A stretch of DNA of 64,000 bases. It comes from Dehalococcoidales bacterium (lineage in GTDB: Bacteria > Chloroflexota > Dehalococcoidia > Dehalococcoidales > RBG-16-60-22). Shown piece after piece: positions 2,282 through 39,281 of this stretch. The notes beneath the pieces are model-generated. The model was not told the origin of the DNA. It saw only the letters and a program-made list of their open reading frames with translations, and ran no database searches. Position numbers and translations under genes: made by a program. The stretch covers positions 8,359 through 72,358 of the forward strand of contig JBEKDZ010000004.1 of assembly GCA_050014095.1 (NCBI GenBank). The letters are read 5' to 3'. The stretch's first letter is position 1. Each line of letters starts with the position of its first letter.

Positions 2282-2304
2282 TAGAGTCTCTAAAAAGACT
2301 CTAC
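2281..2304 (-). terminator. Hairpin overlapping the fdhA stop codon; possible terminator in the convergent gap
   Basis: GTAGAGTC-N8-GACTCTAC is a perfect 8-bp stem, followed on the minus strand by the 2256-2281 hairpin. No strong U-tract. Confidence 0.35.
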
Positions 2305-5255: not shown

Positions 5256-5286
5256 CGGTCGCCTCCAAACTTAATCATCATCGCAA

Positions 5287-7197
5287 CTATGTTTTGGCCC
5301 GCACGGGGATAGGTTCGGCGGGAGCTTTGATAGGCTCACCGGAGACCTTGGCCACGGCGCGAACCTTTTTAGGACAGATATCGTAGCAACTGCCACACTT
5401 AATACACTTCGCCTGGTCGATAACATGCACCATTTTTTTAGCGCCCGTTATCGCGTTGACCGGGCAGACGCGGGCGCAAGCGCCGCAGGCGATACATTTA
5501 TCAGCATCGATATAATACTGAACCAGCGCCCTACATGCCAGCGCCGGACAGCGCTTTTCGTTGATATGGGCTTCATACTCATCGCGGAAGTAGCGGATGG
5601 TAGTGAGGACAGGATTAGGAGCCGTTCCGCCGAGAGCGCAGAGCGAGCCGTTTTTCACCGCGTCGCCCACTTCCAGCAGCAGGTCAATATCGCCCGGTTT
5701 GCCTTTGCCAGTAACAATGTCGTTCAAAATATCCAGCATCTGCTTGGTGCCCCAGCGGCACTGGATGCACTTGCCGCAGGACTCAAGCTGGGTAAAAGTG
5801 AGGAAATAGCGGGCGACATCCACCATGCAATTGTCTTCATCCATGACGACCATGCCGCCGGAACCCACGATGGAGCCAGCCGCTGCCAGGGTCTCGTAAT
5901 CTACTGGCGTATCAAGGAAGCTGGTCGGCAGGCAGCCGCCGGAAGGCCCACCGGTCTGGACAGCCTTGAACTTTTTATCGCCGAAGATACCGCCGCCGAT
6001 GCCGTAGATAACCTCACGCAGGGTTATGCCCATCGGCACCTCGATAAGACCCGTCCTATTTACTTTACCTACCAGCGAAAAGGTCTTGGTACCCTTACTG
6101 CCCTGGGTGCCGTAGGTAGCCCACCAGTCCGCCCTCTTTTGCATAATGGCGGAGACGTGAGCCCAAGTCTCGACGTTATTGATATTGGTCGGTTTGCCCC
6201 ATAGTCCTGATTGGGCGGGGAAAGGGGGACGGGGGCGGGGCATACCCCGCGCGCCTTCGATAGAAGCCATCATGGCAGTCTCCTCGCCACAGACGAAAGC
6301 GCCGGCGCCCTCTTTTATCTTGATATGGAAATTGAGACCGGCACCCATGATGTTATCGCCCAATAAGCCGTACTTTTCCATCTGCTCGAGGGCAGTCTTC
6401 AAGCGCTGGATAGCCAGCGGGTACTCGGCACGGCAGTAGATATAGCCCTCGGAGGCGCCGATGGCATAAGCGCCGATGAGCATACCTTCCAGGATGGCGT
6501 GGGGGTCGCCCTCCAGCACGGCGCGGTTCATAAAAGCGCCGGGGTCGCCTTCATCGGCGTTGCAAATAATATACTTAGGGGAGCCGGCAGCGTCATGGCA
6601 AAACTGCCATTTATTCCCGGTGGGAAAGCCAGCGCCACCCCTGCCGCGCAGTCCCGATTTCTTGATTTCATCAATAACTTCCTGCTGCTTCATTTTTAGG
6701 GCGCGCTGGATTCCTGTATAACCGCCATTAGCGATATAATGGTCGATAGACGAGGGGTCGATATTGCCGCAGTTGCGCATTACCAGACGCACCTGGGGTT
6801 TAAAGACGGGGGACTCGGCGAGGGGAGGAATACCGTCGATGCTACCTTCGCCGCGGGAACCCAGAGCGAGGTCGGGACGGGGATTATCACCGGCAAGATA
6901 GTCGCGGACGATTTCCGCCATCAGCTCCGGCGTGAGATTGCCGTAGAAAATGCTTGGCTTATCGGGTTTGACTATCTCCACCAGGGGCTCGGCGTAGCAA
7001 AAACCGATACAGCCGACCTGGGTTATTTCCGCCTTCAGATTATACTTTTCCAGTTCCTGATGGAGGGCAGCGAGGACAGCCTCGGCGCCGGCGGCGATAC
7101 CACAAGTGCCCATGCCGATGAAGATGCGGGGCCGGGTGCTTTTTTGCGTCGCCTGCCACTGCGTTTGGGCTCTCTCTTTTATCTCTTCAAAATTCAT
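5287..7197 (-). CDS. NuoF/HydB-like NAD(P)H-binding flavoprotein subunit (FMN, Fe-S) with N-terminal thioredoxin-like and C-terminal 2x[4Fe-4S] ferredoxin domains
   Basis: Contains GLRGRGGAGFPTG (NuoF FMN/NAD site), ESCGKCIQCR (N3 cluster) and C-terminal CIACGACARVCP / CIKCGSCYDICP motifs. Operonic with fdhA. Confidence 0.85.
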   Translation of the reverse strand: MNFEEIKERAQTQWQATQKSTRPRIFIGMGTCGIAAGAEAVLAALHQELEKYNLKAEITQVGCIGFCYAEPLVEIVKPDKPSIFYGNLTPELMAEIVRDYLAGDNPRPDLALGSRGEGSIDGIPPLAESPVFKPQVRLVMRNCGNIDPSSIDHYIANGGYTGIQRALKMKQQEVIDEIKKSGLRGRGGAGFPTGNKWQFCHDAAGSPKYIICNADEGDPGAFMNRAVLEGDPHAILEGMLIGAYAIGASEGYIYCRAEYPLAIQRLKTALEQMEKYGLLGDNIMGAGLNFHIKIKEGAGAFVCGEETAMMASIEGARGMPRPRPPFPAQSGLWGKPTNINNVETWAHVSAIMQKRADWWATYGTQGSKGTKTFSLVGKVNRTGLIEVPMGITLREVIYGIGGGIFGDKKFKAVQTGGPSGGCLPTSFLDTPVDYETLAAAGSIVGSGGMVVMDEDNCMVDVARYFLTFTQLESCGKCIQCRWGTKQMLDILNDIVTGKGKPGDIDLLLEVGDAVKNGSLCALGGTAPNPVLTTIRYFRDEYEAHINEKRCPALACRALVQYYIDADKCIACGACARVCPVNAITGAKKMVHVIDQAKCIKCGSCYDICPKKVRAVAKVSGEPIKAPAEPIPVRAKT

Positions 7198-7259
7198 GCT
7201 ATCCCCCTTACCAGGCTAATCACGCACGGAATATCTCAAGAAACCGGCAAACGAGAACA

Positions 7260-7772
7260 TTACTTTTTACCCTTTATCAATTCCCTGGCTTTTTCCGGTG
7301 TCATGCGGCCGTACACCCTATCGTTGACGACGACGACGGGCGCTAGGGCGCAGGAGCCGAAGCAGGCGACCGTTTCCAGTGAATATTCCAGGTCTTTGGT
7401 GCTGCCGCCTTCTTTAATACCAAGTACCTTTTCCAGCTCTTCAAGGATGCGGGGCGACCCCTTGACGTAGCAGCCCGTGCCGCGGCAGACCTTGATAGTG
7501 TTGCGTCCCATGGGGACGAACTTGAACTGGGCGTAAAATGTAGCCACACCGAAGACCGTACTTTCCGGCACTTTTACAAAACCAGCAATATTTCTCATGG
7601 CTGCCTGCGGTAAATAGCCGAGCTTCTGTTGCACCTGCTGCAGGATAGGGATTAACTCGGCTTTATCTCCGGTAAAAGATGCCAGCACCTTGTCAATGGC
7701 ATCCGTGATATCTTTTTCATCCGGTCGACTGGTTTTTATCGCATTTTGGTTACTTTCATTAACGCTCATCAA
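7260..7772 (-). CDS. NuoE/HydC-like 2Fe-2S (24-kDa type) subunit
   Basis: LIPILQQVQQKLGYLP...VCRGTGCYVKG...ETVACFGSCALAPVVVV is the typical NuoE fold. It is the first gene of the nuoE-nuoF-fdhA unit. Confidence 0.85.
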   Translation of the reverse strand: MMSVNESNQNAIKTSRPDEKDITDAIDKVLASFTGDKAELIPILQQVQQKLGYLPQAAMRNIAGFVKVPESTVFGVATFYAQFKFVPMGRNTIKVCRGTGCYVKGSPRILEELEKVLGIKEGGSTKDLEYSLETVACFGSCALAPVVVVNDRVYGRMTPEKARELIKGKK

Positions 7773-12558: not shown

Positions 12559-12801
12559 CTACTTCTTTTTAACGTAAACGCGGATTTCCCCGCCACTTTC
12601 TTCCACACCTAAAAACTCATTGCCGGTGGCCTGCGCCCAGGCCGGCATATCATGCTTGATGCCCTTATCGTCGGCGATGATTTCCAGAACCTCACCCGCC
12701 TTGAGCTCTTTGATTCTCTGCGCCGTTTTTACGATGGGCATCGGGCAATACAAACCCATGCAGTCTAGTGTCTGGTCCGCTTTCATCTCCAACTCCTCCA
12801 A
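12559..12801 (-). CDS. TusA/SirA-family sulfurtransferase
   Basis: CMGLYCPMPIVK (CPxP active-site motif), 80 aa. Confidence 0.85.
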   Translation of the reverse strand: MEELEMKADQTLDCMGLYCPMPIVKTAQRIKELKAGEVLEIIADDKGIKHDMPAWAQATGNEFLGVEESGGEIRVYVKKK

Positions 12802-12802
12802 T

Positions 12803-13303
12803 TTAAATAAACAGGGTTACCTTCGACTGGCGGGCTTCATTCAGGAAAAAGGCAGCCCCTGCCAGACTCCCGACCTCTTCCCGGAAAGCCCCTTCACCCA
12901 AGCCCATCACACCGCAGGATGTAGAGCAGGGAATAAGCTTTATCCCCATGTCCTTCGCCATCTGGATGAACTCATCAATAGAGGGCAGGTGGCTTTCCTT
13001 CATGAACTTTTTCATCATCGCCGTCCCCAGGCCGAACATATGGAACTTCGAGAGCCTTAGCCGCTGCGAGCCGCCGCGGTTCATAAAGTTGAGCATCTTT
13101 TTCATAATGCCTTTGCCGCCCGGTTTACCCTCGTTCTTCTTGAGAATGTTCAGTCCCCAGAAGGTGAAAAACATGCTGACATCCATCCCCATACTGGCGC
13201 CGGTCGTGGCTAAAATAAAAGCCGCCAGCGCTTTATCCAGGTCGCCGCTAAAGACGACGATGGTCATTTTTTCTTTTTCTGCAGATTTTTCCGTCTTAAC
13301 CAT
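12803..13303 (-). CDS. DsrE/DsrF-like family sulfur-relay protein (DsrE3-like)
   Basis: MTIVVFSGDLDKALAAFILATTGASMG...IPCSTSCGVMG. It is abutted to the TusA-like gene, a pairing known from sulfur-relay loci. Confidence 0.7.
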   Translation of the reverse strand: MVKTEKSAEKEKMTIVVFSGDLDKALAAFILATTGASMGMDVSMFFTFWGLNILKKNEGKPGGKGIMKKMLNFMNRGGSQRLRLSKFHMFGLGTAMMKKFMKESHLPSIDEFIQMAKDMGIKLIPCSTSCGVMGLGEGAFREEVGSLAGAAFFLNEARQSKVTLFI

Positions 13304-13304
13304 C

Positions 13305-13511
13305 TTACTGCCCTTCCTTACAAAGCTCCCGGATATTAGCGCCGCAATTGGGGCATGTCTCGGTATCCCGGCGCACGGGCGTCTCGCAGTTCGGACAGTG
13401 CAGTACCTTTACGCCGCAGGCTTCGCAATAGGGGAAAGCCGCCTCGGCGATTTCTTCATCGCAGTAGGGACAGGAATGGACTTTATCCATTGCCTTGTTT
13501 TTATCCACCAT
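13305..13511 (-). CDS. Double zinc-ribbon small protein
   Basis: Four CxxC pairs: CPYC, CEAC, CPNC, CPNC. 68 aa, tightly packed between the iscU and dsrE-like genes. Confidence 0.6.
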   Translation of the reverse strand: MVDKNKAMDKVHSCPYCDEEIAEAAFPYCEACGVKVLHCPNCETPVRRDTETCPNCGANIRELCKEGQ

Positions 13512-13513
13512 TT

Positions 13514-13900
13514 TTACTTACCTCCCGCTTTCTGTTTACTTTGGTAGTCCTTAATCGCTTCGTGCAGGGCCTGGGCGCCCAGGTTGGAGCAGTGCAATTT
13601 GTTTTTGGGCAGCCCTTCCAGCTTATCCGCCACCGATGCAGGGGTCAGCTTCATCGCCTCTTCCAGCGTCATGCCTTTGGCCAACTCGCTGACCATGCTG
13701 GATACGGCAATAGCCGCCCCGCAGCCGAAGGTCTTGAATTTAACGTCTTCCAGGCGGTTGTCCTTGACCTTGATATAGAAGGTCATCATATCCCCGCAGA
13801 CCGGGTTCCCCTCTTCCCCAACCCCATCCGGATTTTCAATTTCCCCCACGTTACGCGGGTTCATGAAATGGTCCATTACAACTTCGTTGTATACCGGCAT
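13514..13900 (-). CDS. iscU: IscU/NifU-type Fe-S cluster scaffold (copy 1)
   Basis: DHFMNPRNVGEIENPDGVGEEGNPVCGD...FKTFGCGAAIA...LHCSNLGAQAL. Confidence 0.9.
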   Translation of the reverse strand: MPVYNEVVMDHFMNPRNVGEIENPDGVGEEGNPVCGDMMTFYIKVKDNRLEDVKFKTFGCGAAIAVSSMVSELAKGMTLEEAMKLTPASVADKLEGLPKNKLHCSNLGAQALHEAIKDYQSKQKAGGK

Positions 13901-13901
13901 A

Positions 13902-15089
13902 TTACTTGCCTCCTTGGCTAGTTTTCACGTATTTTGCGTATAGCGGTGACATCTGCCGCAGCCGGTCAACCACGGGCGGCATCGTCTCCAGAACGTAGTC
14001 GATGTCTTCTTTAGAATTGTCCAGTCCGAGCGTGAACAGCACCGAGCCCTGGGCAATCTCGTGAGAAAGTCCGATAGCGAGCAGCACATGAGAAGCCTTA
14101 AGCGCCCGCGAAGTGCAGGCCGAGCCGCTGGAAACAGCGATGCCTTTGCTGTTTAAGAGCATCAGCATGGCTTCCCCCTCGATGAACTCCACACAGAAGC
14201 TGGCATGACCGGGCAACCGATTTGTAGGGTGACCGGTGACCACCACGTGCTCGATTTTAGAGGGCAGCTCCTTGAGTAAAAGGTCGCGCAGCGGTGTCAG
14301 GGTATATATCCGCTTTGGCATCTGCGCCGCGGCTATTTCCGCCGCCTTGCCCAGGCCAACGATGGCTGGCACATTCTCGGTGCCACCCCGCCGCCCGCCC
14401 TCCTGGATGCCGCCATCGAGCAACGGTATAATTCTGACGCCTTTACGTACCCATAAAGCGCCAGCGCCCTTGGGGCCATAGAACTGGCTGCCAGCCAGGC
14501 TTAAAGCATCTACCCCCAGGTCGGTGACGTTGACGGGTACCGTCCCCGCGGTAGCCACGGCGTCGGTATGGAAGGGTATTTTAAGCTCCTGGGTAATTTT
14601 CGCTATTTCTTTAATCGGCTCGATAGTGCCTATTTCACCGTTGGCGTGCATGATGGAGACCAGTACCGTGTCTTTTCTAATGCTTTTCTTCACATCTTCG
14701 GGATTGACGACGCCGTTTTTATCCACCGGCACTTCGGTTACCTCGAAACCCCATTTTTCCAGCGTGCTTGCCGCGTGCAGCACGGAGAAGTGCTCGATAG
14801 CGGAAACGACAATATGCTTGCCCTGGGTCTGCCGGGCTAAAGCCAGCCCTTTAACGGCGAGGTTATTGCTTTCGGTGCCTCCGCTGGTAAAGATAATCTC
14901 CTCCGCGTCCGCCCCGATAAGGCCCGCCACCTTTTCCCGCGCCTCGTCTAAAGCCTCCCGCGCTTTATCGCCCCAATCGTGTAAGGACTGCGGATTGCCG
15001 AACACTTCGCCGAGGTAAGGCAGCATCGCCTCTCTCACTTCCGGCATCAGGGGCGTGCTGGCAGTGTTATCCAGATATACTTTCTTCAT
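13902..15089 (-). CDS. nifS: Cysteine desulfurase NifS/IscS type (copy 1)
   Basis: PLP-dependent class V aminotransferase motifs ([15 protein letters not shown], the [15 protein letters not shown]-Lys region, SSGSACTS active-site Cys). I prefer ATG 15089 (MKKVYLDN) behind a GGGAGG RBS over the track start at 15098. Confidence 0.9.
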
Positions 15090-15173
15090 ACCTCCCACCT
15101 CCTATGCTCATTATCAGGATAGTCTTGGATGAGGCTAATTGAAATGACTTTTATCTCATTACGCCCGCACCTT

Positions 15174-15200
15174 GTCATTCCAGCGAAAGCTGGAATCCAG
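15174..15200. repeat. Family B hairpin repeat GTCATTCCAGC-GAAA-GCTGGAATCCAG
   Basis: 8-bp stem with a GNRA-type GAAA loop. A near-identical copy sits at 58561-58586. Confidence 0.75.
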
Positions 15201-15216
15201 GGGAGGAGCAGAGGGA

Positions 15217-15250
15217 GTCATTGCGAGGAGCACAGCGACGTGGCAATCTC
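15217..15250. repeat. Family A repeat, solo long arm (GTCATTGCGAGGAGCACAGCGACGTGGCAATCTC)
   Basis: Matches the long arms at 51074-51108 and 58494-58528 (reverse). No inverted partner is present here. Confidence 0.7.
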
Positions 15251-15327
15251 TATCAATGAATTTAGTCAATCGTCGAGCTTACCGGCATATCTTCTCGATT
15301 ACATCGGAACTCTTTGATAACTGTTCA

Positions 15328-15365
15328 TTGTCAACTGTTAACTGAATACTGTCAACTGTCAACTC
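15328..15365. repeat. Cluster of four TGTCAAC/TGTTAAC motifs directly after the PurM-like stop codon
   Basis: The minus strand reads GTTGACAGTTGACAGTATTCAGTTAACAGTTGACAATG. Each unit carries a TTGACA-like hexamer. A possible promoter is TTGACA-17-GACAAT facing nifS copy 1. Confidence 0.4.
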
Positions 15366-15366
15366 A

Positions 15367-16425
15367 TCACGCCTTATATTTCTCCAGTGCCCCATAGAAA
15401 GCCCGCCAGAAGGGGTCGACGATGGGGTGCTCCAGCTTCTTTTCTTTGCCGTTTTCTACCAGCACCATGCCTTTTTCCGGCTGCGTCAGCTCGCCGACGA
15501 TTGATGCCTTAATGCCCTTTTGCGTCAGCGTTTTAACCACGGCCGGCGCTTTGTTTTCCTTGCAGGCGATAATCAGCGTGCCTTCACTAATAGAGGCATA
15601 GGGGTCGATGCCGAACAGTTGGCAAACCTCCTCGACAGACTCCTCAACGACGATTTTTTCTTTTTCCACCCTCACGCCCAGTCCCGATGCTTGAGCCACC
15701 TCGAACAGCCCGCCCCAGACGCCGCACTCGGTAGCATCGTGCATGGCGGTAACGCCTTTCTCCCTGACGCCGACGCTGACCGCCGTTAAAGCGTCTTCAA
15801 CGACCGTCATCTTATAAAAAACCTGCTGGGCTTTATGGTTAAGCTCCGCGCCGTATTTTTCGGTAATAACCCCGGGGAGCATCGCGGCGAAAATTCCGGT
15901 CGCTTCGATAGCCGGCCCCTTGGTAACGATTACTTTATCGCCGGCCCGGCAGAATTTAGGAGTAACGTATTCATTAAGTTCGCCGATGCCGACGATGGTA
16001 GCACCGCCGACCATCGGATAGTGGCAGCCTTCATAGCGGGCGGTGTGGCCGGTAATTACCGCAATACCCATCTTTTCGCACTCGCGGTGAATGATATCCC
16101 AGGTGATTTCCAGTTGCTGCTTGGTCATCTCCATCGGCAGGTTAAGATCGATGCTCAAGAACCTGGGCGTAAGTCCGCTGGTAACGGAGTCCGACGCGAT
16201 GATATGGATCGCGAACCAAGCGGCCCGCTCCCATCCATATTCCGGCACGATAAAAACGGGGTCGCAGGTAAAGGACACCGCTTTGCCCCCGATTTCCACG
16301 ATGCCAACATCCACGCCGTGCTGCGGTCCCACCAGTATGCTCTTACTTTTCGCACCCAGCCGCGGGTAAATCAGCTCGCTAAAAATTTCCGGTGAAATTT
16401 TCCCTATTTCCGGCATATCAGCCAT
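15367..16425 (-). CDS. PurM/AIR-synthase superfamily ATP-dependent enzyme (HypE/ThiL-like), exact function unassigned
   Basis: N-terminal region GPQHGVDVGIVEIGGKAVSFTCDP...IASDSVTSGLTP and C-terminal region AMHDATECGVWGGL fit the PurM-superfamily two-domain layout. Start ATG 16425 (MADMPEIGK) follows a GGAGG RBS. A TPP riboswitch lies immediately upstream. Confidence 0.7.
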   Translation of the reverse strand: MADMPEIGKISPEIFSELIYPRLGAKSKSILVGPQHGVDVGIVEIGGKAVSFTCDPVFIVPEYGWERAAWFAIHIIASDSVTSGLTPRFLSIDLNLPMEMTKQQLEITWDIIHRECEKMGIAVITGHTARYEGCHYPMVGGATIVGIGELNEYVTPKFCRAGDKVIVTKGPAIEATGIFAAMLPGVITEKYGAELNHKAQQVFYKMTVVEDALTAVSVGVREKGVTAMHDATECGVWGGLFEVAQASGLGVRVEKEKIVVEESVEEVCQLFGIDPYASISEGTLIIACKENKAPAVVKTLTQKGIKASIVGELTQPEKGMVLVENGKEKKLEHPIVDPFWRAFYGALEKYKA

Positions 16426-16437
16426 ATTAATACCTCC

Positions 16438-16579
16438 AAAAAACAACTAAACCAGAAGCTTGAGGGGAACCGACTTCTGGTTTTGGTTTCACTTCCCTAC
16501 GCTCGCATTACCGAGTTCAGGTTCAAAGGGTCTGTCCTTCCGTTATCGGAAGGACTCTCAGCCTACAGCTCCCCTAGTG
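16438..16579 (-). promoter_or_regulatory. TPP (THI-box) riboswitch with terminator-type expression platform
   Basis: The minus-strand RNA (16579->16490) reads CACUAGGGGAGCUGUAGGCUGAGAGUCCUUCCGAUAACGGAAGGACAGACCCUUUGAACCUGAACUCGGUAAUGCGAGCGUAGGGAAGUG. The conserved CUGAGA and ACCCUUUGAACCUGA..GGUAAUGC..GCGUAGGGAA elements are present, closed by a P1 helix CACU/AGUG. It is followed by hairpin AACCAGAAG-N15-CUUCUGGUU (16450-16482), a U-rich tract, the RBS and ATG 16425. Confidence 0.9.
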
Positions 16580-16603
16580 GCAATATTCAGTTGTGTTCAC
16601 ATT

Positions 16604-17007
16604 CTATACTATTCCGACGTTTTGCTGCAAGCCTTGTTTCCTCTGGTAGTCCTCGATGGCGGACTTGAGAGCTTCCTCGGCCAGCACCGAGCAGTGCATT
16701 TTGATTGGCGGCAGCCCACCCAAAGCCTCGGCGACGGCGCGGTTGGATATTTTCAACGCTTCATCTATGGTCTTGCCTTTGACCAGCTCGGTGACCATGG
16801 AGCTCGTGGCGATAGCCGCCCCGCAGCCGAAGGTCTTAAACTTGGCGTCCGTAATGACGTTATCTTTTACCTTGATATAAAGCTCCATGATATCGCCGCA
16901 GATGGGGTTGCCCACGTGCCCGACGCCGTCGGGGTTTTCTATCTCACCGACATTCCGGGGATTTTTAAAAAATGTTCCATTACTTTTTCGCTATAAACCG
17001 GGGACAT
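16604..17007 (-). pseudogene. iscU: IscU/NifU-type scaffold (copy 2) interrupted by a 1-nt frameshift in a T6A5 run (true pseudogene, homopolymer miscall, or -1 recoding)
   Basis: ATG 17007 (RBS GGAGGAGG) gives MSPVYSEKVMEHFLKIPGMSVR*. Shifting -1 at CAU UUU UUA AAA A (16966-16972) gives ...HFLKNPRNVGEIENPDGVGHVGNPICGD..., which continues into ORF 16604..16915 and parallels copy 1. Confidence 0.75.
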
Positions 17008-17021
17008 GTAATGACCTCCTC

Positions 17022-18188
17022 CTATTGTTTGCTTTTTAACAGCGGCGACATTGCCCGTAAGTTGGCAACGATCGAAGTTAGAGCAGTGATTACCTGTTCT
17101 ATCTCGTCTTCCGTCGTCCACTTGCCCAAAGTAAAGCGTAGCGAACCGTGCGCTTGTTCATGTGAGCAACCGGTAGCCAGCAAGACATGGGACGGCTCCA
17201 GGCTACCCGAACTGCAGGCGGAGCCGGTGGAAGCCGCGATGCCCTGCATATCCAGGTTCAGTAGCATCGATTCACCTTCAATAAAACTGACGCTGATATT
17301 GACATTATTGGGTAGCCTCTTTATCGGGTGCCCGTTTAAAGTAATATGGTCGATATGTTGCTGCAGCCCGGCGATAAATTTATCTCTCAAGCCGGTCAGC
17401 CGCATAGCTTCTTCATCCATTTCGCGGCGGGCAATTGCCGCCGCCGCACCGAAGCCAACGATGCCGGGAGTATTTTCCGTGCCGGACCGCCGGCCTTTCT
17501 CCTGGCCGCCGCCATGTATAAAGGCGCTTATTTTTGTCCCTTTCCGGATATAAAGCGCCCCTACGCCCTTGGGACCGTAAAGCTTATGAGCAGAAATGGA
17601 AAGCAAATCCACCCCCAACTCGTTAACGTCTACCGGTATATGACCAACCGTCTGCACGGCGTCAGTATGAAAATAGACTCCTGCCTCATGGGCAATTTTA
17701 CCAATTTCAGCCACCGGCTGGATTGTGCCAATCTCATTGTTAGCGTGCATCACGGAGATAAGAATGGTTTTGGGCGTAATAGCTTTTTTTACATCGGCGG
17801 GGTCGACAATGCCGTACTTGTCCACCGGCAGATAAGTGACCTTAAAACCACTTTTTTCAAGGAACTTGCACGTTTCCAGCACGGCATGGTGTTCAATAGC
17901 GGTGGTGATGATATGGTTGCCCTTACTCTCGTTAGCATAACATACGCCCTGCAAGGCAAAGTTATCCGCCTCGGTGCCGCCGCTGGTGAAAACTATCTCT
18001 TCATCGCTAGCGCCGATAAGCCCGGCGACATTAGCTCTGGCTTTCTCGATAGCCTCTCTGGCTTCTTGCCCGAATGAATGAATGCTCGACGGGTTGCCGA
18101 AGGCATCGGTAAAGTACGGCAGCATCGCCTGTAAAACATCAGAGTGCACCGGCGTCGTTGCCGCATAGTCGAGATATATTCTATTCAT
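17022..18188 (-). CDS. nifS: Cysteine desulfurase NifS/IscS type (copy 2)
   Basis: Collinear with copy 1 (SGGTEADN, HANNEIG, SISAHKLYGPKG, STGSACSS). Confidence 0.9.
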   Translation of the reverse strand: MNRIYLDYAATTPVHSDVLQAMLPYFTDAFGNPSSIHSFGQEAREAIEKARANVAGLIGASDEEIVFTSGGTEADNFALQGVCYANESKGNHIITTAIEHHAVLETCKFLEKSGFKVTYLPVDKYGIVDPADVKKAITPKTILISVMHANNEIGTIQPVAEIGKIAHEAGVYFHTDAVQTVGHIPVDVNELGVDLLSISAHKLYGPKGVGALYIRKGTKISAFIHGGGQEKGRRSGTENTPGIVGFGAAAAIARREMDEEAMRLTGLRDKFIAGLQQHIDHITLNGHPIKRLPNNVNISVSFIEGESMLLNLDMQGIAASTGSACSSGSLEPSHVLLATGCSHEQAHGSLRFTLGKWTTEDEIEQVITALTSIVANLRAMSPLLKSKQ

Positions 18189-18262: not shown

Positions 18263-19486
18263 TTAGGCTAACGTCTCTATCTGGCGTTCTTCCAAACTCT
18301 TGATAGCTATACCCGCCTCCACCCCAGGTAAAAGCGTGACCGGCTCGGTCAGGGTAAACTCGCCCTTTTGTATCCAGGATTTTAGCATTTGGGCAATCTC
18401 CACCGCCTTAGGATAGCTGGAAAGCGACGATGTGGGCACTTTCTTGCCTTTCACCTCTATCGTGCCGGTCTTGAGTTGGGCGTAGCTGACCTCTCCCAGC
18501 GTATCCGGTTTACGCTGCGGGTATACCTCGGAATAGTCCACGATAGGCGCGAAGATATCGGCGTCCGTAACCGTTGTGAACTTAAGGATTTCCTCGGACA
18601 GTATCGGAATGGGCACACCGATGCCGACAACCATGCTGGCACCGTAGCCCTGCATGCTGATGCCTCTAAGCCAGGCAGACTTCATCTGCTTCAGGTCGCC
18701 GATGACCGCTAGCGTACCGGCGGGCTTACGCGGCACGCCGTTCTCCCCCCTCGGCACGCCTGGATTATGCTGGGTGCCCTGCCAGGCAACGTAGCCCACG
18801 CCCCCGCCTAGAAATATCTTCGTCCCGATGCCGATGGTCTTATAAAGCGGGTCGTTAAGCAGCGGCGAAAGCTGCCCGGCGCTGCAATAGTTGGCATTCC
18901 CTAAAATGGGCTTCAAAACGCCCATGTAGGTATAAATCGTTTTACTTGATAGATTCACCGCCACGTTGTAATTCTGGTAGGCGTTGCGGGGATTGAAAAG
19001 CACCGCTTCATTAATGTCTTTGAGATTAATCAGTGTTTCCAGTTTCTTTTTCGGATAGCAGTCCGTGCCGTAAGCGGAGGCGACCAAGCGCACATTCTTG
19101 CCGCTGACCAGCTCCTCGATAACATGTCCGCCGCCATACCGAAACTCGCCGGGATGTACCCGGTTCCTGGGGTCATCATCCGGCAAAGCCGTGCAGCCGA
19201 TAAGAATATCCACGGCAGCAAAGCCGGTGTAAACAGGTACATCATTAAGGTAAGCCCGCCCACCGCCGATTTTGATACGCGGTTTAGTGTGCCCCACGTT
19301 AAGGTAGGCGCCCGAGGAACACATCGGGCCGAAAGTGCCGGTGGTCACCACGTCCACGTCGCGGGCGGCTTTCGCGAGCCCTTTCTCTTTAGCGATATCG
19401 ATTATCTCTTCGGCAGTAGCGACTACCGCCTGACCTTTTTTTATTTTTTCATTGATTTCCGCAATTGTTTTCATCAAATACGTCAC
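18263..19486 (-). CDS. COG1900/DUF39 homocysteine-biosynthesis (sulfur-incorporation) protein, MA1821-like
   Basis: VVTTGTFGPMCSSGAYLNVGHTKPRIK...YLNDVPVYTGFAAVDILIG...RYGGGHVIEELV is the family signature as I recall it. No fused or adjacent NIL-ferredoxin partner is seen. Confidence 0.7.
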   Translation of the reverse strand: MTYLMKTIAEINEKIKKGQAVVATAEEIIDIAKEKGLAKAARDVDVVTTGTFGPMCSSGAYLNVGHTKPRIKIGGGRAYLNDVPVYTGFAAVDILIGCTALPDDDPRNRVHPGEFRYGGGHVIEELVSGKNVRLVASAYGTDCYPKKKLETLINLKDINEAVLFNPRNAYQNYNVAVNLSSKTIYTYMGVLKPILGNANYCSAGQLSPLLNDPLYKTIGIGTKIFLGGGVGYVAWQGTQHNPGVPRGENGVPRKPAGTLAVIGDLKQMKSAWLRGISMQGYGASMVVGIGVPIPILSEEILKFTTVTDADIFAPIVDYSEVYPQRKPDTLGEVSYAQLKTGTIEVKGKKVPTSSLSSYPKAVEIAQMLKSWIQKGEFTLTEPVTLLPGVEAGIAIKSLEERQIETLA

Positions 19487-19572
19487 CTTTCAGAGTTTAT
19501 TTTTCCATTAAATAAGCCCTTCCGGGCGACGCATGGTCCATAATAAATTCATCTTATCACCTCAAAAACATT

Positions 19573-20577
19573 CTATTTATTCGGTACAGGCTCCTGGAAA
19601 AGCCAGGTGGAAAGATAGCGCTCGCCGGTATCCGGCAGGATAACTACGACGAGTTTACCTTTGTTTTCCGGTCGCTGCGCCACTTTGACCGCCGCCCAAA
19701 CTGCCGCTCCGGAAGATATACCCGCTAAAATCCCTTCCTCACGCGCCAGCCGTTGGGCGGTAATGCCTGCGTCCTCGTTAGACACAGTTATGATTTCATC
19801 AATAAGGTCTCTGCGAAGGACATCGGGGACAAAGCCAGCGCCGATGCCCTGGATTTTGTGCGACCCCGCTTTACCTTGTGAAAGTACCGGGGAACCCTCC
19901 GGCTCAACCGCGATAGCCTTGAAGTCCGGTTTCCTGTCTTTTAAAACCTCGGCGATGCCGGTTAACGTGCCGCCCGTGCCGACGCCAGCGACTAAAATAT
20001 CCGCCCTGCCGTCCGTGTCCCTCCAGATTTCGTCGGCGGTGGTGAGGCGGTGGATTTCCGGATTGGCCGGATTCTTGAACTGCTGCGGTATAAAGTAGTT
20101 GCTGTTCTCCGCTGCCAGCTGCTCGGCTTTTTTAATCGCTCCAGTCATCCCCTCCGCCCCGGGGGTGAGAACCAGCTCGGCGCCGAAGATGGAAAGCAGC
20201 TGTCTCCTCTCCAGTGACATCGTTTCCGGCATGGTAAGGATAAGCCGGTAGCCCCTGACCGCGCAGACAAATGCCAGGGCGATGCCGGTATTGCCGCTGG
20301 TAGGCTCGACGATAACCGTGTCCTTTTTTATCCGTCCCTTAGCTTCAGCATCGGCAATCATCGCCACGCCGATACGGTCCTTAACGCTGCTGGCAGGATT
20401 GAAGAACTCCAGTTTGGCGACTACCTCCGCCTTAGCCCCATCGGTAACGCGATTTAGTCGTACCAGCGGTGTGTTGCCGATGAGTTCGGTGCAGTCCCCG
20501 GCGATGCCCCGTGTTAGCTTGGGTATTTTCACTGTTTTATAGGTTAAATATTCAATATCTTTGTTTCCCATCTTCAT
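19573..20577 (-). CDS. cysK: Cysteine synthase A (O-acetylserine sulfhydrylase), PLP-dependent
   Basis: [12 protein letters not shown]...[16 protein letters not shown]...[12 protein letters not shown]...[10 protein letters not shown]. Confidence 0.9.
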
Positions 20578-20583
20578 GCTCCC

Positions 20584-21027
20584 TTAGATGTAATACATCG
20601 ATGATTCCGGCAAGCCTTTCTTCTTTTGCCTTTCCACCAGGTCCTGCAGCGTGGTGGCTGCGAGGACTCCGTCCATCGCCTCTTTCATCTCGCCCCAGAC
20701 ATCGCGGGTAACACATTGTTTGGAGCGCTCGCAAACTTCAGGGTGGTCAACGCATTCCACCGGCGCTAACGACCCCTCCAGCAGTTGGGTAATTTCCAGC
20801 ATCGTAATATCCCGGGGTTTTTTGGCCAGGGTAATGCCCCCTTTAGGTCCCTTGATGCTGCGTACAATGCCGCCGGAAATCAAGGGGGCGATTAAATGCT
20901 CCAGGTATGCCAGGGAAATCTGCTGTCTGCCGGCGATGTCCTTAAGAAAGACTGGTCCCCACCCCTCACGGAGCGCCAGCTCTAAAAGGGCTCTAGTGCC
21001 ATAGCGCGTCTTGGTAGAAAGCTTCAT
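20584..21027 (-). CDS. Rrf2-family transcriptional regulator (IscR/CymR-like, three-Cys cluster motif)
   Basis: MKLSTKTRYGTRALLELA...ISLAYLEHLIAPL, with Cys ligand candidates in CVDHPEVCERSKQC. First gene of the sulfur cluster. Confidence 0.85.
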   Translation of the reverse strand: MKLSTKTRYGTRALLELALREGWGPVFLKDIAGRQQISLAYLEHLIAPLISGGIVRSIKGPKGGITLAKKPRDITMLEITQLLEGSLAPVECVDHPEVCERSKQCVTRDVWGEMKEAMDGVLAATTLQDLVERQKKKGLPESSMYYI

Positions 21028-32967: not shown

Positions 32968-33534
32968 ATGCCCGAAGCAAAAACGACGACGTTTATCGAT
33001 GAAATTTGCGCTATCCCCGGCGGGGAGGACATCAAGGTATGCATCCAGTGCGGCACCTGTACAGCTTCGTGCCCCACCGCCGATAGGATGGATTGTTCCC
33101 CTTCCCACCTAATAGCCATGGCTCGGGCAGGCATGCGGGAGGAGGTACTATCCGCCAATAGCATGTGGCTTTGCCTATCCTGCTACTTATGCGTGGTACG
33201 GTGCCCCAGGGATATTAAAATAACCCGACTGATGCACGTCCTGGAGAGCCTATCCGCCCGCAGCCGTTTAAGCAACAAACGCACCACCACGCCGAGGATG
33301 TATAAGGGCTTCAATAAATTCATCATCAGAGGTGGGCGGATATCCGAGCTCTGGATGATGGTCGGCTACTATCTACGCACTAATCCGTTGAAAGCGCTGG
33401 GGATGCTTCCTATAGCGGTCAGTCTATTCCTGCACAAACGCATATCGCTCAAAATAGATAAAATGAAGCCGGAGGGTATCAAGCAGCTTAATGCCATCAT
33501 CGACAAAGCGGAGTCTTCAGGAGGTACCTGGTGA
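32968..33534 (+). CDS. hdrC: Heterodisulfide reductase subunit C
   Basis: Two CxxCxxCxxxCP motifs: CIQCGTCTASCP and CLSCYLCVVRCP. Confidence 0.85.
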   Translation: MPEAKTTTFIDEICAIPGGEDIKVCIQCGTCTASCPTADRMDCSPSHLIAMARAGMREEVLSANSMWLCLSCYLCVVRCPRDIKITRLMHVLESLSARSRLSNKRTTTPRMYKGFNKFIIRGGRISELWMMVGYYLRTNPLKALGMLPIAVSLFLHKRISLKIDKMKPEGIKQLNAIIDKAESSGGTW

Positions 33535-34406: not shown

Positions 34407-34415
34407 GGAGTAGAA

Positions 34416-37790: not shown

Positions 37791-37803
37791 GGAAGTTTAT
37801 CAT

Positions 37804-39267: not shown

Positions 39268-39281
39268 GCTGGAAAGAAACT

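What the first reader, a model, noticed from the sequence alone, without database searches (positions are those of the whole stretch)
15367..16579. TPP riboswitch controlling a PurM-superfamily enzyme embedded between two NifS-IscU pairs
The THI-box is unmistakable in the sequence and has a terminator-type expression platform ending at the RBS of 15367-16425.
- The regulated gene is not a standard thiamine gene name I can assign. It is a PurM/HypE/ThiL-superfamily ATP-dependent enzyme.
- It could be a divergent ThiL (thiamine-phosphate kinase), an AIR-supplying PurM paralog for HMP synthesis, or a new activity.
- Its position directly upstream of nifS-iscU-Zn-ribbon-dsrE-tusA raises the possibility that thiamine status gates a sulfur relay used for thiazole formation.
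Basis: partly seen in the sequence, partly recalled or inferred. Interest (0 to 1): 0.7.

Follow-up and report, generated by a model that had tools for sequence, protein, structure and literature searches.

The report
Thiamine riboswitch controlling an unknown sulfur-cluster enzyme
A genuine vitamin-B1-sensing RNA switch turns off an uncharacterised, very highly conserved ATP-using enzyme that normally sits beside sulfur-mobilising genes in anaerobic bacteria, which makes that enzyme a strong candidate for a missing step in vitamin B1 synthesis.

Summary
Rfam RF00059 (TPP riboswitch) matches window 16477-16585 (-) at 66.6 bits (gathering score 54.3). It is followed by an 11-bp hairpin with a U-tract that runs into the GGAGG/ATG of the gene at 15367-16425.

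That gene ("X") has both AIR-synthase domains. It fails every curated model: HypE 98.7/251.6, ThiL 64.9/184, SelD 47/125-299 bits, and no PurM hit. A true purM lies at 60814-61851.

X defines a very conserved clade (55-94% identity across at least 8 phyla).
- Across the 140 related loci plus the window, its neighbours are NifS (71), CysK (48), IscU (46), Rrf2 (30), NadA, MOSC, FdhD, MnmA, LarE and SelD.
- 29 of 140 loci, from 4 phyla and at least 6 clades of the X tree, carry the same riboswitch-terminator directly upstream.
- X also abuts thiE (4 loci), ThiN (1), thiD (1) and sulfide-dependent Thi4 (2).
- Thi4 shows the same two contexts: riboswitch-controlled, or embedded in NifS/CysK operons.

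Best reading (about 0.4): an ATP-dependent, NifS-linked sulfur step for Thi4-type thiazole synthesis. Main rival (about 0.3): a non-orthologous thiamine-phosphate kinase.

The downstream nifS-nifU-dsrE-tusA set has its own conserved upstream element, so it is not demonstrably under TPP control.

The parts
16601..16630 (-). Sigma-70-like promoter for the riboswitch transcript. The -35 is TTGCAG at 16625-16630 and the -10 is TAGAAT at 16601-16606, overlapping the iscU stop codon.
   Evidence: TTGMAN-N17/18-TAnAAT is conserved about 15 nt upstream of the aptamer in the window clade (L002-L008, L010, L063, L065, L068). Clearer versions occur in L022, L053, L054 and L146. This is sequence conservation only; no transcription start data exist.
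16477..16585 (-). TPP (THI-box) riboswitch aptamer
   Evidence: RF00059, 66.6 bits against gathering score 54.3, full-length match. Homologous aptamers occupy the same position in 29 of 140 related loci.
16438..16483 (-). Intrinsic-terminator expression platform: an 11-bp stem (AAACCAGAAGU / GCUUCUGGUUU), a 13-nt loop containing GGUUCCCCU, and the U-rich tail AGUUGUUUUUU.
   Evidence: Seen in the RNA fold of the platform. A hairpin plus U-run is present in all 25 riboswitch loci examined, across 4 phyla. The loop GUUCCCC is complementary to the aptamer 5' strand AGGGGAGC and pairs with it in the ligand-free MFE.
16433..16437 (-). Shine-Dalgarno sequence GGAGG, 7 nt before the ATG at 16425
   Evidence: Read directly from the sequence.
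15367..16425 (-). Gene X: a 352-aa PurM-superfamily (AIRS N and C domains) enzyme of an uncharacterised clade
   Evidence: Pfam PF00586 and PF02769 are above cut-off. HypE, ThiL and SelD NCBIfam models are all below cut-off. The protein is 100% identical to 'AIR synthase family protein [Dehalococcoidales bacterium]'. Residues K9, D39, D55, D79, D93, C116, H127, C134, H229, D230, E233, C234 and W340 are conserved in 134-137 of 137 orthologues.
17022..18188 (-). Upstream cysteine desulfurase NifS
   Evidence: TIGR03402, 598.8 bits against cut-off 530.75.
16604..17007 (-). Upstream IscU/NifU-type scaffold gene, interrupted by an apparent 1-nt frameshift in a T6A5 run (16961-16972)
   Evidence: Three-frame translation shows MSPVYSEKVMEHFLK in one frame and KNPRNVGEIENPDGVGHVGNPICGD... 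in another.
15142..15160 (-). Conserved element AATGAGATAAAAGTCATTT, about 55 nt upstream of the second nifS; a candidate promoter or operator of a separate unit
   Evidence: It is unique in the window, with 0 matches expected by chance. The exact 15-mer occurs upstream of the second NifS in 10 related loci, including loci without a riboswitch.
13902..15089 (-). Downstream cysteine desulfurase (NifS-like, second copy)
   Evidence: TIGR03402, 508.2 bits, just below the 530.75 cut-off; PF00266, 253.7 bits.
12559..13900 (-). nifU (13514-13900), double zinc-ribbon (13305-13511), DsrE2-like (12803-13303) and TusA (12559-12801)
   Evidence: TIGR03419, 199.4 bits against cut-off 187.9; PF12773; PF13686, 167.7 bits; PF01206, 93.1 bits.
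18263..21027 (-). Upstream genes of the same sulfur cluster: Rrf2 regulator (20584-21027), CysK (19573-20577) and the homocysteine-biosynthesis HcyBio/COG1900 gene (18263-19486)
   Evidence: TIGR00738, 130.9 bits; TIGR01139, 477.3 bits; PF01837, 514 bits.

Best explanation
**What the unit is.** A dedicated promoter, a TPP riboswitch and an intrinsic terminator form an OFF switch. When thiamine diphosphate is abundant, transcription stops before gene X. When it is scarce, X is made.

**What X is.** X is not HypE, PurM, SelD or a canonical ThiL. It is a separate, extremely conserved clade of the PurM superfamily that keeps the ATP/metal-binding aspartates.

**Most likely role.** My best reading is that X performs an ATP-dependent sulfur-handling step. 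It would work with the NifS-type cysteine desulfurase whose operon it usually inhabits. In riboswitch-bearing lineages this step would serve mainly the thiazole branch of thiamine synthesis, which here uses the sulfide-dependent Thi4 enzyme with ThiN or ThiE.

**Proposed mechanism, by analogy only.**
- SelD phosphorylates selenide delivered by NifS-like enzymes.
- HypE and PurL phosphorylate a carbonyl oxygen so that it can be displaced.
- By analogy, X would use ATP to activate either NifS-derived sulfur or an acceptor group, and pass the sulfur on through its invariant Cys134 and Cys234.

**Shown:** the riboswitch, the terminator, superfamily membership, non-membership of the four named families, and the genomic associations.

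**Inferred:** OFF-switch logic, ATP use, the sulfur role and the Thi4 link.
For: **Riboswitch**
- RF00059 scores 66.6 bits against a gathering score of 54.3.
- A hairpin plus U-run terminator is conserved in all 25 riboswitch loci examined.
- A promoter is conserved upstream of the aptamer.

**Thiamine link of X**
- A TPP aptamer lies directly upstream of X in 29 of 140 loci (27 of the 126 with more than 200 nt upstream). These come from Chloroflexota, Zixibacteria, Spirochaetia and FCPU426.
- Riboswitch-bearing genes fall in at least 6 clades of the X tree.
- X appears to be the only same-strand gene under the switch in several loci, for example L005, L008 and L063.
- Operons found: TPP-Thi4-X (L033), TPP-Thi4-ThiN-X (L146), TPP-X-thiE (L021, L071, L074) and thiD-thiE-X (L056).

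**Sulfur link of X**
- Neighbour counts over the 140 loci plus the window: NifS 71, CysK 48, IscU 46, Rrf2 30, NadA 24, MOSC about 23, FdhD 20, HcyBio 15, MnmA 14.
- Where there is no riboswitch, intergenic gaps are usually 30 nt or less.
- Other arrangements: Rrf2-X pairs in 3 phyla, SmsC-SmsB-FdhD-Rrf2-X, X-LarE and SelD-Rrf2-NifS-X, and X-bioB with overlapping codons.

**Parallel behaviour of Thi4**
- Thi4 is riboswitch-controlled in L145, L146 and L153.
- It has no riboswitch where it sits inside NIL-NifS-Thi4-MnmA-MOSC-FdhD-NadA or CysK-Thi4-HcyBio operons.

**Literature**
- Prokaryotic Thi4 genes cluster with CysK, NifS, NifU, ThiI, MOSC, FdhD, MnmA, BioB and HcyBio. Their in-vivo sulfur donor is an open question (PMC13325395).
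- Sulfide-dependent Thi4s are very slow in vitro (PMC10127261).

**Sequence**
- The N-terminal IGKISP resembles SelD's GCKISP / U-A-S-K-L-G-P loop, and the Lys is kept.
- G-H-T matches SelD's G-G-H-S.
- Cys134 and Cys234 are conserved in 136 of 137 orthologues and lie in the two loops that line the ATP site in homologues.
Against: - There is no biochemical precedent for a sulfur-transferring PurM-superfamily enzyme other than SelD (selenium) and HypE (which acts on its own Cys). The actual substrate cannot be named.
- X lacks the Cys/Sec of the SelD loop.
- X was found only in bacteria among the loci retrieved. Archaea with sulfide-dependent Thi4 evidently manage without it.
- Only 2 of 141 X loci have Thi4 adjacent.
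- Adjacency to TMP synthases of two unrelated folds (ThiE and ThiN) is the classic signature of a consecutive step, which would be ThiL.
- X's N-domain scores better against ThiL than against HypE (38.8 vs 19.7 bits).
- All five acidic metal-ligand positions of ThiL have acidic counterparts in X. This rests on my motif alignment, not on a tool result.
- The sulfur clusters also hold non-sulfur cofactor genes (NadA, PdxS/T, PdxA, YjeF). X could therefore be just another cofactor gene in a mixed operon.
- I could not test whether genomes with X lack a canonical ThiL.
Confidence: 0.4

Rival explanations
1. X is a non-orthologous, highly divergent thiamine-phosphate kinase, working like ThiL: TMP + ATP -> TPP + ADP. 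The riboswitch then simply regulates the last step of the pathway. The sulfur-cluster context would reflect mixed cofactor operons, not chemistry.
For: - ThiL is one of the three closest solved families by fold and sequence: Foldseek TM 0.6-0.7, comparable to HypE, and TIGR01379 at 64.9 bits.
- The N-domain is 27-31% identical to Aquifex ThiL over 136 aa. The profile hit to the ThiL N-domain is 38.8 bits.
- X abuts TMP synthase genes of two unrelated folds: thiE in L021, L071, L074 and L056, and ThiN in L146.
- The thiD-thiE-X arrangement in L056 fits a run of consecutive steps.
- One metagenome annotation already calls a member 'Thiamine-monophosphate kinase' (P0224).
- No canonical ThiL was seen in about 1.3 Mb of sampled loci.
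- Many anaerobes with thiC/E/G lack a recognisable thiL (PMC11346370).
- The C-terminal F-W-x-A-F is loosely like ThiL's G-[YF]-x-H-F.
Against: - X fails the ThiL model by 120 bits.
- Every ThiL signature seen in solved ThiLs is replaced: GGDTT -> TGHTARY, DxSDGL -> DATECG, GG(E/D)DYEL -> ISEGTL, GEFxLI -> GKISPEIF.
- Conservation of 55-94% identity across phyla, with invariant Cys134, Cys234, His127 and His229, is unlike ThiL.
- Tight operon membership with NifS/IscU/Rrf2/MOSC/FdhD/LarE/SelD in most loci, and Rrf2-X pairs in three phyla, would be unexplained.
- From my own recollection of Rodionov et al. 2002, which I could not read here, thiL is normally not THI-box regulated.
Confidence: 0.3
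2. X catalyses some other ATP-dependent step of thiamine metabolism that does not involve sulfur. Examples are a kinase for hydroxyethylthiazole, HMP or thiamine, or processing or repair of the ADP-thiazole product of Thi4.
For: - The riboswitch and the thi-gene adjacency are the same as for the other thiamine hypotheses.
- X-thiE mimics the common thiM-thiE pair.
- The enzyme that releases thiazole phosphate from ADP-thiazole in Thi4 pathways is, to my knowledge, not firmly assigned.
Against: - This has the same unexplained sulfur context as the ThiL rival.
- ADP-thiazole cleavage needs no ATP.
- thiD is present beside X in L056, so X is not a ThiD substitute there.
Confidence: 0.1
3. X is a general accessory factor of the minimal NifS-NifU (MIS-type) or SMS Fe-S and sulfur-trafficking machinery, with no specific role in thiamine. 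On this view the riboswitch in some lineages reflects indirect coupling, for example demand from Fe-S plus TPP enzymes such as pyruvate:ferredoxin oxidoreductase.
For: - NifS/IscU/Rrf2/SmsCB neighbourhoods dominate.
- Most loci (about 79%) have no riboswitch.
- MIS systems are described as lacking known accessory factors (PMC13066941).
Against: - A TPP OFF switch dedicated to X alone, with its own promoter, recurs in 4 phyla and at least 6 clades. That is hard to reconcile with a housekeeping Fe-S factor.
- X sits inside bona fide thi operons with Thi4, ThiN, ThiE and ThiD.
Confidence: 0.1
4. X is simply a mis-scored member of a known family: HypE (as JGI annotates it), PurM or SelD.
For: - JGI names members 'hydrogenase maturation factor / HypE'.
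- HypE is the best curated hit (98.7 bits) and the best PDB profile hit (77 bits).
Against: - HypE scores 98.7 against a cut-off of 251.6.
- X has no C-terminal Cys; the protein ends ...DPFWRAFYGALEKYKA.
- No hyp genes are nearby.
- There is no PurM model hit, and a true purM is in the window.
- True SelD genes co-occur with X-type clusters in L057 and L147.
Confidence: 0.02

Closest known systems
TPP riboswitch (Rfam RF00059) with an intrinsic-terminator expression platform
   Same: - Full-length aptamer above the gathering score, with conserved CUGAGA and ACCUGA...GCGUAGGGAA cores.
- Located in the 5' leader of a thiamine-linked gene.
- Followed by a hairpin and U-tract, like the transcriptional OFF switches of Firmicutes thi operons.
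   Different: - The RNA itself shows nothing unusual.
- What is unusual is the regulated gene, which is not in the classical THI regulon.
- The placement is also unusual. In the window and in L004, L005, L008, L021 and L065, the promoter, aptamer and terminator are wedged between nifS/iscU and X. This is a junction that is tight and operonic in most relatives.
ThiL, thiamine-phosphate kinase (TIGR01379; PDB 3C9T, 5CC8, 8YKU)
   Same: - Same PurM-superfamily fold.
- Three N-domain aspartates and the L-x-L-N-L-P strand are shared.
- An acidic residue lies three positions after the C-domain Asp (D-x-T-E in X, D-x-S-D in ThiL).
- Both have thiamine-pathway gene context.
   Different: - X scores 64.9 bits against a cut-off of 184.
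- All ThiL signature motifs are replaced.
- X has a SelD-like N-terminal Lys loop, near-invariant Cys134 and Cys234, and invariant His127.
- X is far more conserved than ThiL.
- X lives in NifS/IscU operons.
SelD, selenide-water dikinase (TIGR00476; PDB 3U0O, 2ZOD)
   Same: - Both are PurM-superfamily enzymes that are genomic partners of NifS-like desulfurases.
- They share the N-terminal G-K-I-S-P type loop with the catalytic-position Lys.
- They share the G-H-[ST] motif.
- Real SelD genes occupy equivalent positions in related clusters (SelD-Rrf2-NifS-X in L057; SelD-NIL-NifS-Thi4 in L147).
   Different: - X has no Cys or Sec three residues before the Lys.
- X scores only 43-47 bits against cut-offs of 125-299.
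- X's C-domain is closer to HypE.
- SelD is not linked to thiamine.
HypE, [NiFe]-hydrogenase cyanide-ligand maturase (TIGR02124; PDB 2Z1E, 2I6R)
   Same: - HypE is the best overall sequence and fold match, especially in the C-domain: D-A-T-x-x-G, (S/N)-E-G-(T/K)-L and D-P near the C-terminus.
- In HypE the C-terminal tail enters the active site.
   Different: - X has no C-terminal PR(I/V)C cysteine.
- GDT is replaced by GHT, and TRGG by TECG.
- There is no hyp gene context.
- X is regulated by TPP.
ThiI / ThiF-ThiS and other IscS/NifS sulfur-acceptor systems (TusA, MnmA, FdhD, LarE)
   Same: - These are ATP-dependent enzymes that take cysteine-desulfurase sulfur to a specific cofactor, and they are often encoded beside the desulfurase.
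- X shares operons with MnmA, a ThiI-like PP-loop protein, FdhD, MOSC, LarE and TusA/DsrE2.
   Different: - Those enzymes are PP-loop, E1-like or rhodanese proteins, whereas X has the PurM fold.
- No sulfur-carrier activity of X has been shown.

Membership tests
TPP riboswitch (RF00059) | Covariance-model score at or above the curated gathering score, over the full model | tested here: met
   66.6 bits against 54.3, model positions 1-105 of 105, E=6.8e-11.
TPP riboswitch (RF00059) | Lies in the 5' leader of the regulated gene, on the same strand, with an expression platform | tested here: met
   The aptamer ends 51 nt before the ATG. A terminator hairpin plus U-tract lies between them. The same layout occurs in all 25 orthologous riboswitch loci examined.
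TPP riboswitch (RF00059) | Binds TPP and changes transcription | not testable with these tools
   Needs in-line probing or in-vitro transcription.
PurM superfamily (AIRS N and C domains) | Both Pfam domains above their gathering scores | tested here: met
   PF00586, 40.5 against 24; PF02769, 80.5 against 23.1. Foldseek top hits are HypE, ThiL and SelD at TM 0.55-0.79, but the model is only moderate (pLDDT 65.7).
ThiL (thiamine-phosphate kinase) | TIGR01379 equivalog score at or above cut-off | tested here: not met
   64.9 bits against 184.15. The other ThiL models score 23.8-37.5 bits against cut-offs of 301-441.
ThiL (thiamine-phosphate kinase) | Signature motifs of solved ThiLs: GEFxLI, GIGDD, GGDTT, DxSDGL, GG(E/D)DYEL, C-terminal G[YF]xHF | tested here: not met
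   X has IGKISPEIF, HGVDVG, TGHTARY, HDATECG, ISEGTL and DPFWxAF. Only the aspartate positions and an aromatic C-terminal motif are loosely retained.
ThiL (thiamine-phosphate kinase) | TMP kinase activity; absence of another ThiL in the same genome | not testable with these tools
   Whole-genome co-occurrence could not be queried. No canonical ThiL was found in the about 1.3 Mb of loci held, which is weak evidence.
HypE | TIGR02124 score at or above cut-off | tested here: not met
   98.7 bits against 251.6.
HypE | C-terminal catalytic cysteine (PR[IV]C) that is carbamoylated | tested here: not met
   X ends ...HPIVDPFWRAFYGALEKYKA. No Cys occurs in the last 60 residues in any of 22 aligned orthologues.
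HypE | hypF/hypC/hypD gene context | tested here: not met
   None were seen among the neighbours across the 140 loci plus the window.
SelD | SelD model score at or above cut-off | tested here: not met
   43.4-47.4 bits against cut-offs of 125-299. Real SelD genes score 348 bits (L057).
SelD | Cys or Sec in the N-terminal glycine-rich loop, three residues before the essential Lys | tested here: not met
   The Lys is conserved (K9 in 134 of 137, the other three being gaps). The position three residues before it is E, D, T, A or K, never Cys. Compare SelD GCGCK and GSG-U-ASK.
PurM (AIR synthetase) | TIGR00878 match | tested here: not met
   X gives no TIGR00878 hit at E<=1e-3. A canonical purM scoring 376.7 bits lies at 60814-61851.

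The most novel reading that the evidence does not exclude
X, together with its neighbouring NifS and perhaps the small CoA-binding protein that directly follows it in 12 or more loci, is the missing physiological sulfur-donor system for prokaryotic Thi4 thiazole synthases. It may also serve other sacrificial or sulfide-dependent sulfur insertases such as BioB and LarE. On this reading X is a SelD-like enzyme that uses ATP to convert desulfurase-derived sulfur into an activated carrier form. That form could be thiophosphate, an enzyme-bound persulfide or a CoA persulfide. This would explain why sulfide-dependent Thi4s are so slow with free sulfide in vitro.
Probability: 0.2. Interest if true: 0.85.

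Novelty: new variant of a known kind. Interest (0 to 1): 0.65.

Why it matters
**Why the gene family matters**
- A TPP riboswitch is one of the most reliable markers of a role in thiamine metabolism.
- Here it marks a protein family that no curated model or searchable paper explains.
- The family is large: more than 5,000 database proteins score E<=1e-20.
- It is conserved at 55-94% identity across at least eight bacterial phyla.
- It is embedded in the cysteine-desulfurase hub of anaerobes.

**If X handles sulfur**
- It would give a concrete, testable candidate for an open question raised in 2021-2026 work on Thi4: what feeds sulfur to prokaryotic Thi4 in vivo?
- It would add a new chemistry to the PurM superfamily.
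- It would also supply an accessory component for the supposedly two-protein MIS (NifS-NifU) system.

**If X is a ThiL analogue**
- It would fill a "missing thiL" gap in genome-based vitamin B1 auxotrophy predictions for Dehalococcoidia and other uncultured anaerobes.

**Annotation**
- Either way, the current annotations are uninformative ('AIR synthase family protein') or wrong ('HypE', 'hydrogenase maturation factor').

Tried and rejected
1. **AIR-supplying PurM paralogue.** Rejected. X gives no PurM model hit, and a real purM is in the window.
2. **HypE, as JGI annotates it.** Rejected on score, the missing C-terminal Cys and gene context.
3. **A strict regex for the THI-box**. It missed divergent aptamers, so I replaced it with Rfam scans and my own covariance model R1.
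4. **AlphaFold2 model and Foldseek.**
   - The model came from a shallow alignment, because only P-ids were allowed. Mean pLDDT was 65.7 and the N-domain was below 50.
   - Foldseek then ranked HypE, ThiL and SelD almost equally, so structure did not discriminate between functions.
5. **Literature searches.** I tried TPP riboswitch + AIR synthase/HypE, PurM-like + cysteine desulfurase, AIR synthase + NifU + Dehalococcoid, and MIS/SMS reviews. None described this family. Key subscription papers (Rodionov 2002; Rodionova 2015; Sun 2019, PMC6393793) are not held.
6. **Canonical ThiL in the loci held.** None found. The sample is too small to be decisive.
7. **TPP control of the downstream nifS-nifU-dsrE-tusA unit.** Not supported as a conserved feature.
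8. **The GTTGACA heptamer array after X as a conserved operator.** It is not conserved in relatives.
9. **The 'second copy of X' in L057.** It turned out to be SelD.
Full report

Yes. A scan of the whole window against Rfam 15 gives one riboswitch: RF00059 (TPP) at 16477-16585 on the minus strand. It scores 66.6 bits against a gathering score of 54.3 (E=6.8e-11) and covers the full model.

Immediately 3' of the aptamer, the RNA folds into an 11-bp hairpin:
- The arms are AAACCAGAAGU (16483-16473) and GCUUCUGGUUU (16459-16449).
- The hairpin is followed by AGUUGUUUUUU (16448-16438).
- This runs straight into GGAGG (16437-16433) and the ATG at 16425.

In the ligand-free minimum-energy fold of the whole leader, the terminator stem does not form. 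Instead, the aptamer 5' strand (AGGGGAGCU) pairs with GGUUCCCCU in the terminator loop. That GUUCCCC loop motif is conserved in the closest relatives, which fits an antiterminator. I treat this last step as inference.

A sigma-70-like promoter (TTGMAN, 17-18 nt spacer, TAnAAT) is conserved about 15 nt upstream of the aptamer in the window clade. Clearer versions occur in other lineages. In the window it lies at 16601-16630 and overlaps the stop codon of the upstream iscU. The unit is therefore promoter, TPP aptamer, terminator, SD, gene.

**2. What is the regulated gene?**

ORF 15367-16425 (352 aa, here called "X") has both AIR-synthase-related domains (PF00586 and PF02769). No curated equivalog model is reached:

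| Model | X score (bits) | Cut-off (bits) |
|---|---|---|
| HypE | 98.7 | 251.6 |
| ThiL | 64.9 | 184 |
| SelD | 43-47 | 125-299 |
| PurM | no hit | - |

- A bona fide purM (TIGR00878, 376.7 bits) lies elsewhere in the window at 60814-61851.
- X is 100% identical to an 'AIR synthase family protein' of a Dehalococcoidales MAG. JGI calls relatives 'HypE' or 'hydrogenase maturation factor'.
- A profile of 22 orthologues against PDB sequences ranks HypE (77 bits) above SelD (44) and ThiL (43), with PurM at 24. The N-domain matches ThiL best and the C-domain matches HypE best.
- An AlphaFold2 model was only moderate (pLDDT 65.7). Foldseek put HypE, ThiL and SelD together at TM 0.55-0.79. The fold is confirmed, but the function is not resolved.

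**3. Family signatures**

X orthologues are 55-94% identical across:
- Chloroflexota/Dehalococcoidia and Thermomicrobium-like MAGs
- Zixibacteria
- Stahlbacteria/WOR-3
- Omnitrophota
- Desulforudis and Thermoanaerobacterales (Bacillota)
- Spirochaetia
- Elusimicrobia
- FCPU426

In 137 orthologues the following residues are conserved in 134-137 sequences: K9, D39, D55, D79, D93, C116, H127, C134, H229, D230, E233, C234 and W340.

Motif comparison with solved ThiLs:

| ThiL motif | X equivalent |
|---|---|
| GEFxLI | IGKISPEIF |
| GGDTT | TGHTARY |
| DxSDGL | HDATECG |
| GG(E/D)DYEL | ISEGTL |
| G[YF]xHF | DPFWxAF |

- **HypE:** its C-terminal cysteine is absent from X.
- **SelD:** X shares the N-terminal loop (E. 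coli GCGCKISP; GSG-U-ASKLGP in L147), including the Lys, and the G-H-[ST] motif. It lacks the loop Cys/Sec.
- **C116:** this residue is also a Cys in Aquifex ThiL (RACE) and E. coli SelD, so it is probably structural. Cys134 and Cys234 are specific to X.

X is therefore a distinct clade with a mosaic of ThiL-, SelD- and HypE-like features. It keeps the aspartates that bind ATP and metal in its relatives.

**4. Comparative genomics, thiamine side**

I collected 60 loci from GTDB genomes and 80 from metagenomes.

- A TPP aptamer lies directly upstream of X, on the same strand, in 29 of the 140 loci.
  - That is 27 of the 126 loci that have more than 200 nt upstream.
  - Sources: Rfam; own model; count.
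- These loci come from Chloroflexota, Zixibacteria (L037, L038), Spirochaetia (L053) and FCPU426 (L054).
- They fall in at least six clades of the X tree, interleaved with riboswitch-free genes.
- All 25 riboswitch loci examined have a hairpin plus U-run.
- In several, X appears to be the only same-strand gene behind the switch (L005, L008, L063).

Adjacency of X to thi genes:

| Arrangement | Loci |
|---|---|
| TPP-X-thiE | L021, L071, L074 |
| thiD-thiE-X | L056 |
| TPP-Thi4-X | L033 |
| TPP-Thi4-ThiN-X-(CoA-binding protein) | L146 |

X is therefore a thiamine-pathway gene with high probability.

**5. Comparative genomics, sulfur side**

Counts of neighbouring gene clusters over the 140 loci plus the window (annotation):

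| Neighbour | Loci |
|---|---|
| NifS | 71 |
| CysK | 48 |
| IscU | 46 |
| Rrf2 | 30 |
| NadA | 24 |
| MOSC | about 23 |
| FdhD | 20 |
| HcyBio | 15 |
| Cys/Met PLP enzyme | 15 |
| MnmA | 14 |

- Where there is no riboswitch, X usually follows NifS, IscU, NIL or Rrf2 by 30 nt or less. It is followed equally tightly by MOSC, FdhD, a small CoA-binding protein, MnmA or a BcrAD/BadFG-family ATPase.
- Other arrangements:
  - SmsC-SmsB-FdhD-Rrf2-X in Thermoanaerobacterales
  - X-LarE, and SelD-Rrf2-NifS-X
  - X overlapping bioB in L053
- In the window and in L004, L005, L008, L021 and L065, the promoter-riboswitch-terminator is inserted at the NifS/IscU-X junction, which is tight elsewhere.

**6. 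Thi4 behaves the same way**

Relatives of the L033 Thi4 are named 'sulfide-dependent adenosine diphosphate thiazole synthase' in Chloroflexota, Dehalococcoidales and Omnitrophota.
- Some are riboswitch-controlled, as Thi4-ThiN(-X) operons (L145, L146, L153).
- Others have no riboswitch and are embedded in sulfur operons:
  - SelD-NIL-NifS-Thi4-TRASH permease-MnmA-MOSC-FdhD-NadA (L147, L148)
  - CysK-Thi4-HcyBio-NIL/Fd (L154)

A 2026 study reports the same neighbourhood for prokaryotic Thi4 genes: CysK, NifS, NifU, ThiI, MOSC, FdhD, MnmA, BioB, HcyBio and LarE. It argues that sulfur relays may feed Thi4. It does not mention a PurM-like protein (PMC13325395). Sulfide-dependent Thi4s are reported as labile, with kcat below 1 per hour (PMC10127261).

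**7. Interpretation**

Two readings survive.

(a) **X is an ATP-dependent sulfur-handling enzyme** that works with NifS and chiefly serves Thi4-type thiazole synthesis. This explains:
- both genomic contexts, which Thi4 shares
- the Rrf2 pairing
- the SelD-like loop and the invariant cysteines
- the restriction to anaerobes

(b) **X is a non-orthologous thiamine-phosphate kinase.** This is favoured by:
- adjacency to two unrelated TMP synthases (ThiE and ThiN)
- the ThiL-like N-domain
- the retained acidic ligands

It leaves the sulfur context, the cysteines and the extreme conservation unexplained.

I put (a) at about 0.4 and (b) at about 0.3. The decisive test is whether X-containing genomes lack ThiL and TPK.

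**8. The downstream nifS-nifU-Zn-ribbon-dsrE2-tusA unit**

X ends at 15367 and the second nifS starts at 15089. The 277-nt spacer has these features:
- It is not conserved among relatives.
- It contains a REP-like palindrome and a GTTGACA heptamer array.
- It ends with AATGAGATAAAAGTCATTT (15142-15160) followed by a TGATAAT -10-like box.
- The exact 15-mer is found upstream of the second NifS in 10 relatives, including riboswitch-free ones (L009, L061, L062).

Riboswitch-bearing relatives often lack a downstream nifS. No clear terminator follows X, so read-through cannot be excluded. Even so, TPP gating of this relay is not a conserved feature.

**9. Novelty**

The riboswitch is an ordinary member of a known class. 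The regulated enzyme family is uncharacterised as far as the accessible literature and curated model libraries show. It is probably either a new activity in the PurM superfamily or a new analogue of ThiL. It makes the question of the in-vivo sulfur donor of prokaryotic Thi4 directly testable.

Noticed in passing
window 16961-16972 (within iscU, about 16604-17007, minus strand): The upstream iscU reading frame switches at a T6A5 homopolymer: MSPVYSEKVMEHFLK in one frame, KNPRNVGEIENPDGVGHVGNPICGD... in another. This is either a homopolymer assembly error or a pseudogenised scaffold gene.
   Followed up: partly
window 15142-15160 (-); L001-L004, L006, L009, L034, L061, L062, L065: A conserved imperfect dyad, AATGAGATAAAAGTCATTT, plus a TGATAAT box lies upstream of the second nifS. 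The exact 15-mer occurs in 10 related loci whether or not a TPP riboswitch is present. It is a candidate operator or promoter, perhaps for the Rrf2 regulator.
   Followed up: partly
window 15329-15364 (-): A tandem array of about 5 GTTGACA heptamers begins two bases after the stop codon of X. The motif resembles a -35 box. The array is not conserved in relatives.
   Followed up: yes
window 15173-15200 (-); similar elements in L003, L061, L062, L065: A REP-like palindrome, CTGGATTCCAGCTTTCGCTGGAATGACA, lies in the X-nifS spacer. Related GTCATTCC...GGAATCC palindromes recur in the same spacer of relatives. They produce spurious '...VIPAKAGIQ...' ORFs (15129-15317 and 15172-15345, plus strand).
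   Followed up: partly
window 60814-61851 (-): Canonical purM (TIGR00878, 376.7 bits against a cut-off of 236).
   Followed up: yes
L053:5827-11332 and L054:2977-6130: In a Spirochaetia MAG and an FCPU426 MAG, the TPP riboswitch precedes X and a biotin operon follows directly: bioB, a bioF-like gene and, in L053, a hydrolase, bioC and bioD. The bioB start overlaps the X stop in L053. A thiamine switch sitting in front of biotin genes is unexplained.
   Followed up: partly
L057:3084-3998; L147:137-1186: Selenocysteine-encoding SelD genes (in-frame TGA) sit in the same NifS/Rrf2 clusters as X or Thi4: SelD-Rrf2-NifS-X, and SelD-NIL-NifS-Thi4.
   Followed up: partly
L011, L082, L092, L100, L106, L109, L113, L116, L126, L128, L146 and others: A small CoA-binding protein (PF13380, about 120-155 aa) directly follows X, often with overlapping or near-zero spacing, in 12 or more loci. 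This includes the TPP-Thi4-ThiN-X operon of L146. It may be relevant to CoA-persulfide chemistry.
   Followed up: no
window 32968-39758 (+): An HdrC/HdrB-like pair and a VhuG-like [NiFe]-hydrogenase small subunit lie in one plus-strand cluster, resembling an Mvh/Hdr-type module. There is also a NuoE/NuoG- or FdhA-like cluster at about 2301-7772 (-).
   Followed up: no
L051:2247-7050 and L055: In Thermomicrobium-like MAGs, X follows pdxR-pdxS-pdxT (PLP synthesis). In L016, pdxA lies upstream of X. X therefore also associates with non-sulfur cofactor genes.
   Followed up: no
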